DNA from: Escherichia phage RCS47
Strand: one strand, 5' to 3'
Sequence record: NC_042128.1
Length of the DNA: 64,000 nt
The position numbers were made by a program, and so were the translations under genes. The notes under the pieces are model-generated. The model had not been told where the DNA came from, made no database searches, and saw only the letters and a list, made by a program, of their open reading frames with translations. Within the stretch, counting starts at the first letter, position 1. Each line of letters begins with the position of its first letter. Positions 34,878 through 38,426 of this stretch are shown one piece after another.

Positions 34878-35123
34878 TTGGCAGAACGTGTTGATGATGC
34901 AGAGCTGAGCATGAATCAGTTAGAAGCTCTCAAAGACATGGCCATCGATAACATCAGAAAGCAGGCACAGGTCGTGAGCCAGGTATTTACAGGGAAGTGT
35001 CGTTACTGCAATGAATCGATTGAATCAGGCATTTATTGTGACGCTGAATGTGCGCAATGGCACAGGGAAGAGCAGGCTGCAAAACAGCGTAAATATGGCA
35101 TGCGACCGGCAGGATTTGACTGA
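34878..35123 (+). CDS. zinc-ribbon small protein
   Basis: C-x2-C-x9-C-x3-C motif CRYCNESIESGIYCDAEC; 81 aa. Confidence 0.45.
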   Translation: MAERVDDAELSMNQLEALKDMAIDNIRKQAQVVSQVFTGKCRYCNESIESGIYCDAECAQWHREEQAAKQRKYGMRPAGFD

Positions 35124-35125
35124 TT

Positions 35126-35704
35126 ATGTTGCGCTTTACTGAGGAAGAGTTTCAGGCTTTTAGTGAGCGTCGAAATAAGGGGCGGTCCAGGCCAAAAACC
35201 AAAAAGGATCCATTCTTATCGCTTGCGCCGGTAAAAGAAGTTTCTCCACATGCGAAGGCACTTGCAGCACTGGCAAAGAACCCCGACCTGCGCGACGGAA
35301 ATTGCGAGCACTTCGAGCAGGTTTTCATTTTTGATTACTTCGAACGCAAGCACCCTGACATCTATGAGCTGTTGCATGCAACGCCTAACGGAGGGAAACG
35401 TTCAAAAGCAACCGCCGGGAAAATGAAGGCTGAAGGGCAGAAAAAAGGTTATCCGGACATGAGTCTCGATAAAGCATGCGGTATTTATCACGGCATGCGA
35501 ATTGAGCTTAAAGAACCAAATGGTAAAGCCCCGACGAAAGAGCAGATCGCCTGGATGCGCAGGCTTAGAGAGGAAGGTTACTACGTCGTTCTTGCGTATG
35601 GTGCAGAACAAGCGATAACCGCCATCCTGGAATACATGAGCCTTAAAAAGGGTGAGGCTATTGAGCATGTATTGAACGGTGACAAGTGGTTGTTCGCTAC
35701 GTGA
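35126..35704 (+). CDS. VRR-NUC domain nuclease-like protein
   Basis: PD-(D/E)xK-type motif GYPDMSL...RIELKEP; 192 aa. Confidence 0.55.
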   Translation: MLRFTEEEFQAFSERRNKGRSRPKTKKDPFLSLAPVKEVSPHAKALAALAKNPDLRDGNCEHFEQVFIFDYFERKHPDIYELLHATPNGGKRSKATAGKMKAEGQKKGYPDMSLDKACGIYHGMRIELKEPNGKAPTKEQIAWMRRLREEGYYVVLAYGAEQAITAILEYMSLKKGEAIEHVLNGDKWLFAT

Positions 35705-35900
35705 AATAATAAATTAATTAGTGCATATGTGTTCTTTGATACAGCGCACATTAACATCGGGAGAATAATCGTGTCATCCAAGGCTAATTATGAATCGCTG
35801 GCATCGATCATGCCGCGTAATGAACAGGAAGCAGATGCTGTAGTGGACCCGGTAATCGCTGAAATGAATGCTCGCCTGGAGGCTGAATTTGCAGCTGAGA

Positions 35901-36530
35901 ATGAACATACCACCCAGGGCGACTAGGACTGTTTTTTGTGTCGGTAGCGGTCCGTCACTCACTCGTGAGGACTGTGCTGCTATAGAAAAAACTGGCTGTT
36001 CAATCATCGCGGTTAACAATTCCTGGCAGATGTTCGATGACATTTATGCCTTATACGCCGGTGATTTGTCATGGTGGAAGCAATACGGATCCACCATACC
36101 GGGAGGGAAATTCCGCAAAGTGACAGCCAACCTGGCGGCGGCGAAATCATTTTCGTTGGAGTACAGGCGATATTGTGGACCGGCGGAAGGGGTAAATAGC
36201 GGCGCGCAGGCTATCAGTCTGGCTGCTGAATCAGGGGCTGAAGTAGTTGTATTAGTCGGCTATGACTGTTCTCTGCAAAACGGCCTTCATTGGCATGGCG
36301 CGCACCCTCAAGCCCTACGGAATCCAACGCAGGTGTCTATTTCAAAATGGCAACAGCAGTTCCTGGATACCCGCAAAAAACACGCAGATTTACATATTTT
36401 GAATGCAAGTAGGAGCAGTGCAATTCAATGTTTCCCAAGAATAAATTTAGAGGCAGTGATCGCGTTATTATCGTCGGCAGTGGCCCAAGCGCCGCAAACT
36501 TTGTTGCGCCGCGCGGAGTGCCGATTATAG
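35901..36530 (+). CDS. GSGPS-motif protein, paralog A (MptE/DUF115-like fold suspected)
   Basis: FCVGSGPSL...IIAVN...SG..A..LA...G...VVLVGYD; paralogous to the next gene. Confidence 0.45.
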   Translation: MNIPPRATRTVFCVGSGPSLTREDCAAIEKTGCSIIAVNNSWQMFDDIYALYAGDLSWWKQYGSTIPGGKFRKVTANLAAAKSFSLEYRRYCGPAEGVNSGAQAISLAAESGAEVVVLVGYDCSLQNGLHWHGAHPQALRNPTQVSISKWQQQFLDTRKKHADLHILNASRSSAIQCFPRINLEAVIALLSSAVAQAPQTLLRRAECRL

Positions 36531-37054
36531 CGGTCAATGGGGCCATCGACTGGCTGAACCGCGCTTCTTATTTTTTCACACTTGATCCATCGCCAGACAA
36601 TATGCGGCGCGTTGGTCGTGGCCGCCGTCGCCGTGGTGTTTGTTATTGCATGGCACTACCCGATGTTAAAGAACGTGAAGTCAGAGACGGCGTTCTGTGC
36701 TTCCGTCGTGTGGCTGAACGTGGCATGGAGCCAAAAAATATGAATTCTCCCGAGTGGTGGGCGTGGCGCTGGTCCGCACATTTCGGACTTTGCGAAGATG
36801 AGAATGAAATTGCCAGCGGCAATAGTGCATATGGCGCTCTGAACCTGGCTTTCCATATCGGATTCAAACATGTCGCCCTGGTGGGCGTTGACGCTACACA
36901 AGAACCACGCGTTCACTCCGGCGGCACGCCAAAAAATCTAAGTCACCTGCCTTTGTTATTCCAGTCTGCGCGTGAACAGATTGACGTTGTTTCATGCGGG
37001 AAAATGGGAGGTATTCCGCAGATGACTCTTAAAGAATGGCTGAAGAATACATGA
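36428..37054 (+). CDS. GSGPS-motif protein, paralog B
   Basis: IIVGSGPS...IIAVNGA...[13 protein letters not shown]...ALVGVD; 208 aa. Confidence 0.45.
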
Positions 37055-37728
37055 TGGCACCCACAATTTATCACCGTATCGACGGTACCAAATACAGGAA
37101 TGTCTGGGTTGTTGGTGATCTGCATGGTTGCTACACCAGACTGATGTCCGAACTCCATCGTGTGGATTTTGACCCGGCGCAGGATTTACTGATATCGGTC
37201 GGCGACCTTATCGATCGCGGTACTGAAAATGTCGAATGTCTGGAACTATTGCAGATGCCCTGGTTCAGGGCAGTGATGGGGAACCATGAGCGGCTGATGA
37301 TTGATGCGTTAAGTCCAGATGGCAACGTGAATAACTGGCTAATGAATGGCGGACAATGGTTCTTCATGCTGGACACTGATCAGGAAATATTAGCCTGGGC
37401 GCTGGTGGAGCTGGTAAAGCGTCTGCCCTATATCATTGAGTTGAACACCGGGCAAGAAACTATCGTTATAGCCCATGCCGACTATCCGGATAATGAATAC
37501 CAATTCGGTAAGGAGGTGCCGCTTTTCAACGTTGTCTGGGCGCGCGAGCGTATCAGTGATTCGATGGATGATATTGGTGGCGAAATTTCGGGCGCAGATC
37601 GTTTTATCTTTGGTCACACTCCGGTGAAAAGCCCGAAGACATTCTGGAATCAGCAGTATATCGACACTGGTGCCGTATTTTGCGGAAACCTGACATTGAT
37701 GAAAGTGAAAGGTGATGGTGCAGCATGA
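37036..37728 (+). CDS. ppp: Ser/Thr protein phosphatase (lambda-PPase family)
   Basis: metallophosphatase motifs GDLHG, GDLIDRG, GNHE. Confidence 0.85.
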
Positions 37729-38426
37729 AGATTGCTTTAGTTTTTCGCTCTGGTGGTGACTATAACGCTTCCGATGTGCAGTGGCTGGTTAATCAACTGC
37801 CAAAAGGCTATGAAATTATTTGCCTGACAGACCTGAAGCGTTTACATGTACCTGGCGTCAAAGTTGTCCCATTGATCAACCAGTGGCAAAAGTGCCGTGG
37901 CTGGTGGGCGAAAATCGAGTTGTTCCGACCGGATATAACAGATGATCTGTTCTATCTGGATTTGGACACAGTTATTGCCGGTGATATACGCCCAATCCTT
38001 GAGAATCCACCAACCAGCTTCACCATGCTTAGGGATTTTTACCATCCACAATATCGTGGTAGCGGTGCCCTGTGGATACCAAATAGTGTAAAAGCGCATA
38101 TCTGGAGTTCATTCTGGCAAGATCCGGAAGGTTGGATTTCTCGTTGTGTCACTACTGAGTGCTGGGGTGATCAGGGGTTCTTACGGAAGGTTATGGGCGA
38201 TGATACACCAGCATTTCAGGATCTGTATCCAGGATGGTTTGTAAGTTACAAGGCCGATGTTGTGGAACCTGGTTCAAAATATGCGAGCGCGCGTTACTCC
38301 AGGGGGAATGGGGCATTACCAAAGGACTGCCGAATAATCTTTTTCCACGGCAAACCGCGACCTCGCGAAGTGTCAGAGGATTGGCTTCCCCTTATTAGCT
38401 CGTTTTTTGAGCGAGAATCAGAATAA
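37725..38426 (+). CDS. nucleotide-sugar transferase-like protein (DxD motif)
   Basis: LDLDTV DxD-like motif; 233 aa. Confidence 0.4.

What the first reader, a model, noticed from the sequence alone, without database searches (positions are those of the whole stretch)
34878..38426. C1-controlled operon of nucleic-acid and sugar-modifying enzymes
Seen in sequence: downstream of an operator at 34804-34820 the operon encodes a zinc-ribbon protein, a VRR-NUC nuclease-like protein, two paralogous GSGPS...AVN...LVG(Y/V)D proteins (MptE/DUF115-like fold suspected), a Ser/Thr phosphatase and a DxD nucleotide-sugar transferase-like protein. A separate GT-B-like gene lies at 28935-29933. Inference: this enzyme set could form a DNA or virion modification/anti-restriction pathway expressed early after derepression; function unknown.
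Basis: inference. Interest (0 to 1): 0.4.

Follow-up and report, generated by a model that had tools for sequence, protein, structure and literature searches.

The report
Phage P1 glycosyltransferase cassette (pmgO/P/Q + dbn)
This is the already annotated pmgL–pmgQ region of phage P1; three of its genes plus the distant gene dbn form a sugar-transferase cassette shared with unrelated phages, where it often sits among head and tail genes, so it probably adds sugars to a phage or cell-surface component, though nobody has shown which.

Summary
The window is a phage P1 variant: 99.6% identical to MH422554 and 98.4% to the P1 reference. The region is not one functional pathway, though.

- **Conserved unit.** PmgO and PmgP are distant MptE/Maf-like paralogs. 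PmgQ has a GT8-like GT-A fold with an invariant DxD. Dbn is GT4-like with an invariant EX7E motif.
- **Linkage.** All four genes are contiguous in E. coli phage EP_H11. O-P-Q are contiguous in a Citrobacter prophage. PmgQ::MptE-like and PmgO-like::Dbn-like fusions exist.
- **Context elsewhere.** In many siphophage contigs the cassette lies inside the head–tail gene module, next to methyltransferases; one locus adds a TylF-type O-methyltransferase and a PIG-L deacetylase.
- **Not part of it.** PmgL (zinc ribbon), PmgM (VRR-NUC nuclease), PmgN and Ppp (lambda phosphatase homolog) do not travel with the cassette.

My best reading is a phage glycosylation module that uses host nucleotide sugars. 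A virion protein is the most likely target and the cell envelope the main rival; the target is not shown. Published single-gene deletions give no plaque or antirestriction phenotype, which argues against the anti-restriction idea. The genes are known; their function is not. Interest is moderate.

The parts
24373..24400 (.). Bivalent C1 operator Op72ab (Obanab) heading the ban-dbn operon
   Evidence: A perfect consensus match at 24373-24389 (+) and a 2-mismatch site at 24384-24400 (-). P1 annotates this pair as controlling ban, with dbn as the last gene of that unit.
28935..29933 (+). dbn: GT4-like (GT-B type) glycosyltransferase, the fourth member of the cassette
   Evidence: Pfam Glycos_transf_1 scores E 1.5e-5, 25.1 bits against a cutoff of 26.4. 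H246, E248, E256 and G261 are invariant, giving an EX7E motif across 37 homologs. Ten of 37 members hit Glycos_transf_1. Homologs sit inside PmgO/PmgQ cassettes in L074 (32% identity, E 7e-45) and in EP_H11 (48%). P0362 is a PmgO-like::Dbn-like fusion.
34771..34789 (+). Late promoter LPpmgL, as annotated in the P1 reference
   Evidence: Mapped from AF234172 features. The block 34761-34789 containing it differs from the reference at 1 position. Activity was not tested here.
34804..34820 (-). C1 operator O26/Op82 between divergent genes 26 and pmgL
   Evidence: Two mismatches to the consensus and 17/17 identity to the P1 operator.
34878..35123 (+). pmgL: small zinc-ribbon protein (CxxC-x9-CxxxC); not part of the cassette
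   Evidence: PHROG_54 'DksA-like zinc-finger' at E 1.6e-12. Pfam gives only a weak treble-clef hit. Cys sit at 41, 44, 54 and 58.
35126..35704 (+). pmgM: VRR-NUC (PD-ExK) nuclease; not part of the cassette
   Evidence: PDB 4qbl VRR-NUC at E 8e-17. Pfam VRR_NUC at E 3e-4, below threshold. The motifs YPD(111) and E(127)-L-K(129) are present.
35711..35727 (-). Second C1 operator Oppp/Op83 ahead of pmgN-pmgQ
   Evidence: Annotated in P1 and 16/17 identical here. It has 4 mismatches to the consensus, so the 3-mismatch scan missed it.
35771..35926 (+). pmgN: small protein of unknown function (51 aa from GTG 35771; 65 aa if started at 35729)
   Evidence: P1 and P7 annotations. It matches only unknown-function PHROG families and was not found next to any non-P1 cassette examined.
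35901..36530 (+). pmgO: MptE/Maf/GT42-like enzyme (annotated start 35868; homologs suggest ATG 35901)
36428..37054 (+). pmgP: distant paralog of pmgO, overlapping it by 103 nt
   Evidence: Pfam MptE-like at E 3e-4, below threshold. Profile-profile match to the PmgO family at 97.5%, E 7e-12. Conserved motifs.
37036..37728 (+). ppp: lambda-type Ser/Thr (PPP-family) phosphatase inserted between pmgP and pmgQ
   Evidence: Pfam Metallophos at 59.3 bits, above threshold. PDB 1g5b at E 1.5e-94. GDLHG, GDLIDRG and GNHE are present. It is absent between the PmgP and PmgQ homologs in L055, JK004, phiNP, L003 and EP_H11.
37725..38426 (+). pmgQ: GT-A fold, GT8-like glycosyltransferase with DxD
38428..38493 (.). 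Operators OpmgRa and OpmgRb, which start the next unit (pmgR-pmgS)
   Evidence: Sites at 38428-38444 (+) and 38477-38493 (-), identical to P1.

Best explanation
The region is a mosaic of at least three unrelated functions under C1 control.

**The conserved unit.** The coherent part is a glycosylation cassette of PmgO, PmgP, PmgQ and, 5 kb upstream, Dbn. PmgQ is most likely a retaining, Mn-dependent hexosyltransferase of the GT8 type. Dbn is most likely a retaining GT4-type transferase. PmgO and PmgP are a pair of Maf/sialyltransferase-like enzymes. I infer they transfer a CMP-activated acidic sugar; in E. coli K-12, from general knowledge, the only such donor would be CMP-Kdo.

**How it probably works.** No sugar-nucleotide synthesis gene turned up in the parts of the window examined, so I assume the enzymes draw on host nucleotide sugars. 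I propose they build a short glycan on a shared acceptor during lytic growth. The most likely acceptor is a virion or morphogenesis protein, by analogy with mycobacteriophage and chlorovirus capsid glycosylation. The module is dispensable on laboratory hosts.

**The other genes.** PmgL (zinc ribbon), PmgM (VRR-NUC junction nuclease) and Ppp (lambda-type phosphatase) are independent accessory genes that happen to be co-transcribed.

**Shown versus inferred.** Folds, motifs, gene linkage, fusions and genomic contexts are shown. Enzymatic activity, donor sugars and the acceptor are inferred. My subjective probability that the four proteins form one carbohydrate-handling module is about 0.8. For a virion protein being the acceptor in P1 it is about 0.35-0.4.
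For: **Folds and motifs**
- PmgO resembles Maf, MptE and Cst-I.
- DxD and H208 are invariant in PmgQ. EX7E is invariant in Dbn.
- PmgO and PmgP are paralogs.

**Gene linkage**
- PmgO-PmgP-Dbn-PmgQ are contiguous in E. coli phage EP_H11, at 32/47/48/33% identity. IME392 shows the same placement by hit coordinates.
- O-P-Q are contiguous in the C. rodentium prophage phiNP and in L003.
- L074 carries a PmgO-like gene, a Dbn homolog and a PmgQ::MptE-like fusion, followed by a TylF O-methyltransferase and a PIG-L deacetylase.
- P0362 is a PmgO-like::Dbn-like fusion.
- An MptE-like gene lies within 3 kb of the PmgQ homolog in 11 of 20 dereplicated distant viral loci.

**Genomic context**
- One metagenomic siphophage has the cassette between Mtd_N proteins and head-tail connectors.
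- A census covered 125 neighbouring ORFs in 18 non-P1 loci. The commonest families were portal, capsid, head-completion, tail-completion and HK97-gp10 proteins, plus FkbM and other SAM methyltransferases.
- In D3 and PAJU2 the PmgO homolog lies inside the structural module.
Against: - No glycan on any P1 protein has been reported. The P1 virion proteome paper and the tail-baseplate cryo-EM preprint contain no glycosylation terms.
- Single deletions of every cassette gene plaque normally.
- In P1 the genes sit behind C1 operators that also give early expression.
- In EP_H11 the cassette lies among small hypothetical genes rather than structural genes.
- The siphophage structural-module contexts share homologous neighbours, so they may represent one lineage rather than independent placements.
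- The MptE-like fold is also that of pyrophosphokinases.
- None of PmgO, PmgP, PmgQ or Dbn reaches a Pfam gathering score.
Confidence: 0.4

Rival explanations
1. The cassette acts on the host envelope rather than the virion. During lytic growth it would alter LPS core or another surface glycoconjugate. That could mask the P1 receptor on infected cells and debris, or exclude superinfecting phage.
For: - GT8 and GT4 are the families of the E. coli LPS-core enzymes (WaaO/R/J and WaaG), Kdo is an LPS sugar, and P1 adsorbs to LPS-core glucose. These points come from general knowledge and were not tested here. LgtC, an LPS galactosyltransferase, is among the top PmgQ fold matches.
- Every named host of homologs is a Gram-negative proteobacterium.
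- In lambdoid prophages the cassette lies between the lysis genes and terminase, a classic site for cargo genes.
- A PmgQ homolog stands alone in a Pantoea-like metagenomic contig.
Against: - In P1 the genes are repressed in the lysogen, so this cannot be lysogenic conversion.
- Only LPS made after infection could be altered.
- Many homologs are embedded between capsid and tail genes.
- No membrane-associated flippase or polymerase partner was seen next to the cassette.
Confidence: 0.25
2. This is the first reader's proposal: the enzymes modify phage DNA, for example by base glycosylation, as an anti-restriction measure.
For: - A nuclease-like gene (pmgM) lies upstream in the same transcription unit.
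- Phage DNA glycosyltransferases exist in other phages (general knowledge).
- The published antirestriction assay covered only the systems those authors used.
Against: - Deletions of pmgL-Q, dbn and ppp did not change antirestriction.
- The top fold matches are protein- and oligosaccharide-directed GT8 enzymes and Maf or sialyltransferases, not DNA glycosyltransferases.
- PmgM does not accompany the cassette in the non-P1-like phages examined.
- From general knowledge, P1 has no hydroxymethyl-base pathway, and its DNA is known to carry methylation only.
Confidence: 0.04
3. PmgO and PmgP are not glycosyltransferases. They would be MptE- or thiamine-pyrophosphokinase-like enzymes that phosphorylate or pyrophosphorylate a small molecule or a sugar. 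The cassette would then make or destroy a metabolite, for instance to counter a host defence signal.
Against: - Fusions to a GT-A domain and to a GT-B domain exist.
- The cassette co-occurs with a sugar O-methyltransferase and a PIG-L deacetylase.
- PADLOC gave no significant match.
Confidence: 0.15
4. There is no joint function at all. The region would be a run of unrelated accessory genes kept together only by P1 genome organisation.
For: - This is true for PmgL, PmgM, PmgN and Ppp.
- All single knock-outs are silent.
- No gene reaches a curated Pfam threshold except ppp.
Against: O, P, Q and Dbn recur together across unrelated phages, at 32-58% identity in the contiguous cassettes, and occur as fusions.
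Confidence: 0.1

Closest known systems
Phage P1 pmgL-pmgQ / P7 upf81-hdmA-D region, and dbn (P7 glt), as annotated in AF234172, AF503408 and RefSeq
   Same: These are the same genes, at 98% nucleotide identity. The operators Op82 and Op83, the late promoter and the gene order match. The AF234172 record already calls Dbn a 'possible glycosyltransferase'. RefSeq already labels pmgO 'alpha-2,3-sialyltransferase', pmgQ 'glycosyltransferase' and pmgM 'VRR-NUC'.
   Different: The published names ('putative morphogenetic function', 'head morphogenesis') rest on map position. No paper I could find links dbn with pmgO/P/Q or describes the cassette outside P1.
Virion glycosylation clusters of mycobacteriophages and the chlorovirus PBCV-1 capsid glycosylation machinery
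   Different: The enzyme families differ (GT8-like, GT4-like and two MptE/Maf-like) and the hosts are Gram-negative. No glycan has been demonstrated on P1 or any relative. How the mycobacteriophage systems work is recalled from general knowledge, not tested here.
Maf flagellin glycosyltransferases and GT42 sialyltransferases (Cst-I/II); Pfam MptE-like/DUF115
   Different: PmgO and PmgP are single-domain proteins of about 180-210 aa. Maf is a much larger protein (632 residues). Both fall below the Pfam threshold. The donor sugar and the catalytic residues are untested.
GT8 retaining glycosyltransferases (LgtC, glycogenin, GlyE, Skp1 alpha-galactosyltransferase)
   Different: There is no sequence-level Pfam Glyco_transf_8 match, and identity is only 13-17%. 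PmgQ belongs to a separate, mostly phage-borne family.
Bacteriophage lambda Ser/Thr phosphatase (NinI, PDB 1g5b)
   Same: Ppp matches over its full length at E 1.5e-94 with all metallophosphoesterase motifs.
   Different: It sits inside a glycosyltransferase cassette rather than the lambda nin region. Its in-vivo role is unknown in both phages.

Membership tests
Pfam MptE-like / DUF115 (PF01973) | Score at or above the Pfam gathering cutoff (34.6 bits) | tested here: not met
   PmgO scores 23.6 bits and PmgP 21.1 bits. Some homologs carry a precomputed PF01973 hit.
Pfam MptE-like / DUF115 (PF01973) | Rossmann-like fold shared with Maf, MptE and GT42 enzymes | tested here: met
Maf / GT42 CMP-sugar glycosyltransferases | Catalytic His base and CMP-binding residues in equivalent positions; CMP-sugar-dependent transfer | tested here: inconclusive
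   Invariant H130/H132 (HWHG) and N-S-G occur in PmgO, and H173 and G-N-S in PmgP. No residue-level superposition could be made, and activity cannot be tested with these tools.
GT8 glycosyltransferases | Sequence match to Pfam Glyco_transf_8 | tested here: not met
   PmgQ has no Pfam family at E <= 1.
GT8 glycosyltransferases | GT-A fold closest to GT8 members | tested here: met
GT8 glycosyltransferases | DxD metal-binding motif plus a downstream His ligand | tested here: met
   D79, D81 and H208 are invariant in 31 homologs. That H208 is the metal ligand is an inference.
GT4 / Glycos_transf_1 (GT-B) | Pfam gathering score (26.4 bits) | tested here: not met
   Dbn scores 25.1 bits. Ten of 37 family members hit at E < 0.01, with a best E-value of 1.5e-5.
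GT4 / Glycos_transf_1 (GT-B) | EX7E motif in the C-terminal Rossmann domain | tested here: met
   E248 and E256 are invariant, along with H246 and G261. The family profile aligns this stretch to a putative glycosyltransferase, 8xsg, at E 0.005.
GT4 / Glycos_transf_1 (GT-B) | Two-Rossmann-domain GT-B fold | not tested
VRR-NUC nucleases | Sequence homology to a solved VRR-NUC domain and an intact PD...ExK motif | tested here: met
   PDB 4qbl at E 8e-17. D111 and E127-L-K129 are present. The Pfam score itself is below cutoff (21.2 against 23.8).
PPP-family (lambda-type) protein phosphatases | Metallophos domain above threshold, with GDxHG, GDxxDRG and GNHE motifs | tested here: met
   Pfam scores 59.3 bits against 21.5. 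1g5b matches at E 1.5e-94. The motifs start at residues 27, 56 and 82.
DksA/TraR zinc-finger RNA-polymerase regulators | C4 zinc finger (CxxC-x17-CxxC) and a match to the family model | tested here: not met
   No Pfam zf-dskA_traR hit. The Cys spacing is CxxC-x9-CxxxC. Only PHROG_54 carries the 'DksA-like' label.
C1-controlled P1 transcription unit | 17-bp asymmetric C1 operator overlapping the promoter | tested here: met
   Op82 has 2 mismatches to the consensus, and Op83 is 16/17 identical to P1's annotated site. Repression in vivo cannot be tested here.
Phage virion-glycosylation systems | A glycan covalently attached to a virion protein and dependent on the phage glycosyltransferases | not testable with these tools
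   Only context supports this. No report of a P1 glycan was found.

The most novel reading that the evidence does not exclude
P1 and a wide set of phages of Gram-negative bacteria would decorate a virion protein with a short glycan. A dedicated four-enzyme cassette would build it, and its two Maf-like members would transfer a host CMP-activated acidic sugar such as Kdo. As far as I know, this would be the first virion glycosylation system in phages of Gram-negative hosts, and the first biochemical role for phage MptE/DUF115 proteins.
Probability: 0.15. Interest if true: 0.7.

Novelty: new variant of a known kind. Interest (0 to 1): 0.4.

Why it matters
P1 is one of the most used phages in genetics, yet these genes still carry placeholder names such as 'putative morphogenetic function'. 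Treating dbn, pmgO, pmgP and pmgQ as one cassette, shared with D3-like, lambdoid, EP_H11-like and jumbo phages, turns four silent single-gene knock-outs into one testable hypothesis. Redundancy, or a phenotype invisible on K-12 lawns, would explain the silence.

If the product is a virion glycan, it would bear on phage stability, immune recognition and host range, and so on phage therapy. It would also assign a function to a widespread uncharacterised phage protein family. If the target is the envelope, it would be a new form of receptor masking during lytic growth.

The work also corrects the picture of the operon: ppp, pmgL and pmgM are unrelated passengers.

Tried and rejected
- **Sequence searches against solved structures.** PmgO alone, the PmgO family profile, PmgL, Dbn alone and a three-sequence Dbn profile gave only chance-level hits. 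The 37-member Dbn profile gave one weak glycosyltransferase hit.
- **NCBIfam and PADLOC.** Nothing useful came back except phosphatase names for Ppp. There was no significant defence-system match.
- **PmgL as a TraR-like regulator.** I found no alignment and dropped the idea as a claim.
- **AFDB fold library.** It was not available. BFVD returned only uncharacterised MptE-like viral proteins.
- **Promoter scan.** The consensus sigma-70 scan found fewer sites than in shuffled sequence and none of the annotated promoters, so I rely on the P1 annotation.
- **'Structural protein' labels.** The PAJU2 and Eowyn records label their PmgO homologs 'structural protein'. The PAJU2 paper is not in the library and the Eowyn label may be copied, so I give this no weight.
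- **PAJU2 ORF011 / D3 orf12.** I suspected this 275-aa protein was a heptosyltransferase-like enzyme, but Pfam gave nothing, so I make no claim.
- **Literature.** Searches for pmgO/P/Q, for phage MptE/DUF115 and for virion glycosylation found no functional study of these genes.

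
Full report
**What the window is.** The 3.8 kb around the finding is 99.6% identical to Punavirus P1 MH422554. It is 98.4% identical to the P1 reference AF234172 and 98.1% to P7. The finding therefore covers the annotated P1 genes pmgL, pmgM, pmgN, pmgO, pmgP, ppp and pmgQ (P7: upf81.0, upf81.2, hdmA-C, ppp, hdmD). The 'separate GT-B gene' is dbn, called glt in P7. Six proteins are 98-100% identical to the P1 reference proteins; PmgN is 48/51.

**Checking the observation.**
- The C1 operator at 34804-34820 (- strand) has two mismatches to the consensus. 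It is one of 14 operator-like sites in the window, against 0.35 expected. It is identical to P1's O26/Op82.
- PmgL has four cysteines arranged CxxC-x9-CxxxC and matches a PHROG family labelled DksA-like zinc finger at E 1.6e-12.
- PmgM matches the solved VRR-NUC domain 4qbl at E 8e-17 and keeps the PD...ExK motif.
- Ppp is a full-length homolog of lambda phosphatase 1g5b at E 1.5e-94, with all three metallophosphoesterase motifs.
- PmgO and PmgP share only 14 of 36 residues in the best pairwise segment. Their family profiles still match at 97.5% probability, E 7e-12, over 155 columns. Both hit Pfam MptE-like below threshold.
- Dbn sits just under the Glycos_transf_1 cutoff (25.1 against 26.4 bits). 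Its family is rare, with 256 representatives among 1.84 billion proteins. It has an invariant H-x-E...E (EX7E) motif, the hallmark of GT4 enzymes.

The P1 record annotates a second operator, Op83/Oppp, between pmgM and pmgN. It maps to window 35711-35727 and is 16/17 identical here. With four mismatches to the consensus, it escaped the 3-mismatch scan. The record also annotates a late promoter (LPpmgL) at window 34771-34789. In this variant the predicted internal promoter PpmgN differs at four positions, and its -10 changes from TATGCT to TTCGCT. Transcription of pmgN-Q may therefore rely more on the upstream promoters. The only hairpins with at least 10 pairs are at 40010-40038 (+), after pmgS, and at 40640-40618 (- strand). 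dbn is the last gene of the ban operon, behind the bivalent operator Op72 at 24373-24400. Both halves of the enzyme set are thus C1-controlled.

**The region is not one pathway.** I collected homologs of PmgO, PmgQ and PmgP and looked at where they are encoded.
- In a Citrobacter rodentium lambdoid prophage (phiNP), homologs of PmgO (41% identity), PmgP (58%) and PmgQ (43%) are contiguous between the lysis genes and terminase. There is no phosphatase, zinc ribbon or nuclease.
- A Logan contig (L003) has the same trio plus an extra DxD protein with a weak Nucleotid_trans match.
- E. coli phage EP_H11 has PmgO-like, PmgP-like (unannotated in GenBank), Dbn-like and PmgQ-like genes in a row, at 32, 47, 48 and 33% identity. 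Hit coordinates in IME392 indicate the same arrangement.
- An IMG/VR contig (L074) has a PmgO-like gene, then a full-length Dbn homolog (32% identity, E 7e-45), then a PmgQ::MptE-like fusion. A TylF-type O-methyltransferase and a PIG-L GlcNAc deacetylase follow, both above Pfam thresholds.
- One Dbn relative, P0362, is a PmgO-like::Dbn-like fusion.
- A divergent P1-like contig (L055) keeps PmgM, PmgO, PmgP, PmgQ, PmgR and Dbn but has no ppp between pmgP and pmgQ. The spacing of hits in Cronobacter phage JK004 indicates the same.
- Among 20 dereplicated distant viral loci, 11 have an MptE-like gene within 3 kb of the PmgQ homolog.

The conserved, functionally linked unit is therefore PmgO, PmgP and PmgQ, often with Dbn. 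Ppp is an insertion in P1. PmgL, PmgM and PmgN are unrelated neighbours.

**Where the cassette lives in other phages.**
- In one metagenomic siphophage the genes lie inside the structural module. The order is terminase, portal, protease and capsid; then two Mtd_N-domain proteins; then the cassette; then head-completion and tail genes.
- In Pseudomonas phages D3 and PAJU2 the PmgO homolog lies inside the head-tail module, just after the capsid gene (D3) or the head-tail adaptor (PAJU2). A 275-aa protein of unknown family and a SAM methyltransferase lie nearby in both phages, immediately downstream in PAJU2.
- I ran a Pfam census of 125 same-strand neighbours within 6 kb in 18 non-P1 loci. The commonest families were portal (6+2), capsid (6), head-completion (6), FkbM methyltransferase (6), tail-completion gp17 (5), HK97-gp10-like (5) and other SAM methyltransferases.
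- These siphophage loci share homologous neighbours, so they may be one broad lineage rather than independent placements.
- In EP_H11 the cassette sits among small hypothetical genes.
- All named hosts are Gram-negative proteobacteria.

**Mechanism.** The shown facts are four enzymes with sugar-transferase folds and intact signature residues, linked by synteny and fusion, and often accompanied by methyltransferases. One locus adds sugar-tailoring enzymes. No sugar-nucleotide synthesis gene turned up in the parts of the window examined. From this I infer a module that builds a short glycan from host nucleotide sugars on a common acceptor. PmgQ and Dbn would be retaining hexosyltransferases. PmgO and PmgP would be a Maf/sialyltransferase-like pair, possibly using a CMP-activated acidic sugar.

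For the acceptor I favour a virion or morphogenesis protein, for three reasons:
- the cassette is repeatedly embedded in head-tail modules;
- PmgQ's best fold matches include protein-glycosylating GT8 enzymes and the PBCV-1 capsid glycosyltransferase;

This is inference. No glycan has been reported on P1, and neither the virion proteome paper nor the tail-baseplate cryo-EM preprint mentions one.

**Rivals.**
- The strongest rival is action on the host envelope. GT8 and GT4 are the LPS-core enzyme families and P1 adsorbs to LPS-core glucose (general knowledge). The hosts are all Gram-negative, and in lambdoid prophages the cassette occupies a cargo-gene site.
- A pyrophosphokinase role for PmgO and PmgP cannot be excluded from the fold alone. 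The fusions to GT-A and GT-B domains argue against it.
In-frame deletions of pmgL, M, N, O, P, Q, dbn and ppp were made. The 24 non-essential knock-outs showed no plaquing defect and no change in antirestriction. A CRISPRi screen also scored the genes non-essential, except pmgN, which conflicts with its deletion. No fold match points to a DNA glycosyltransferase.

**Comparison with what is known, and novelty.** The genes, operators and even rough fold labels are already in public records, so the observation itself is known. RefSeq already calls pmgO a sialyltransferase and pmgQ a glycosyltransferase, and the AF234172 record calls Dbn a possible glycosyltransferase. I could not find three things in the literature: the grouping of dbn with pmgO/P/Q as one cassette, its spread across unrelated phages with fusions and tailoring enzymes, and the exclusion of ppp, pmgL and pmgM. 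By function it most resembles virus-encoded virion glycosylation clusters. It differs in enzyme families and host range, so I rate it a new variant of a known kind.

**Verdict.** Confidence that the four proteins form one carbohydrate-handling module is about 0.8. Confidence in a virion target is about 0.35-0.4. Interest is moderate (0.4), because the function remains untested and all knock-outs are silent on laboratory hosts.

Noticed in passing
window 35672-35698: The predicted internal promoter PpmgN of the P1 reference differs at 4 positions in this variant, and its -10 changes from TATGCT to TTCGCT. The flanking operators are conserved. pmgN-pmgQ may depend on read-through from the pmgL promoters here.
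   Followed up: partly
window 36428-36530: pmgO and pmgP overlap by 103 nt. Most PmgO homologs are about 180-190 aa and end before this overlap, so the P1 protein carries a C-terminal helical extension. Homolog N-termini also suggest the true pmgO start is ATG 35901 rather than 35868.
   Followed up: partly
window 40063-40569 (pap): The gene annotated 'acid phosphatase' matches the HAD phosphatase domain of polynucleotide kinase-phosphatase (Pfam HAD_PNKP, E 3.4e-11, above threshold). That suggests a nucleic-acid 3'-phosphatase type of enzyme.
   Followed up: partly
window 40010-40038 (+) and 40640-40618 (-): Two strong terminator-like hairpins (11 and 10 pairs) bracket pap. The first ends the pmgR-pmgS unit.
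   Followed up: no
L087 6814-7449 (Escherichia phage EP_H11, OP688485 about 42813-43448): The GenBank record leaves a 565-bp gap unannotated. The gap encodes a clear PmgP homolog (47% identity, profile E 5.6e-80).
   Followed up: yes
L085 5855-6409 (Pseudomonas phage D3): D3 orf6.5 and orf7 overlap a reading frame, open from at least 5855, that encodes a full PmgO homolog including the ASGPSL motif. The annotated orf7 lacks that N-terminus, so the gene looks mis-started in the record.
   Followed up: partly
L084 9001-9633 (metagenomic contig; the protein's source label names Candidatus Pantoea floridensis): A PmgQ homolog (48% identity) stands alone between the pyruvate dehydrogenase genes and an aconitase gene on a bacterial chromosome-like contig, with no phage genes nearby.
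   Followed up: no
window 35729-35926 (pmgN): The literature conflicts. CRISPRi knock-down scored pmgN essential (EOP 1.4e-2), while an in-frame deletion is viable. The screen's authors note the contradiction. A polar or off-target effect seems possible.
   Followed up: no
L086 6525-7349, L085 7748-8575, L089 5589-6476: A conserved protein of 275-296 aa with no Pfam match lies next to the PmgO homolog in PAJU2 and Klebsiella phage Eowyn, and about 1.3 kb downstream of it in D3, with a SAM methyltransferase following it in each. This looks like a second cassette type built around PmgO.
   Followed up: partly
window 1529-63940: Fourteen C1-operator-like sites are spread across the window (0.35 expected). 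They include perfect or near-perfect sites at 3190, 19828, 24373, 40569 and 63841, consistent with the dispersed C1 regulon of P1.
   Followed up: no
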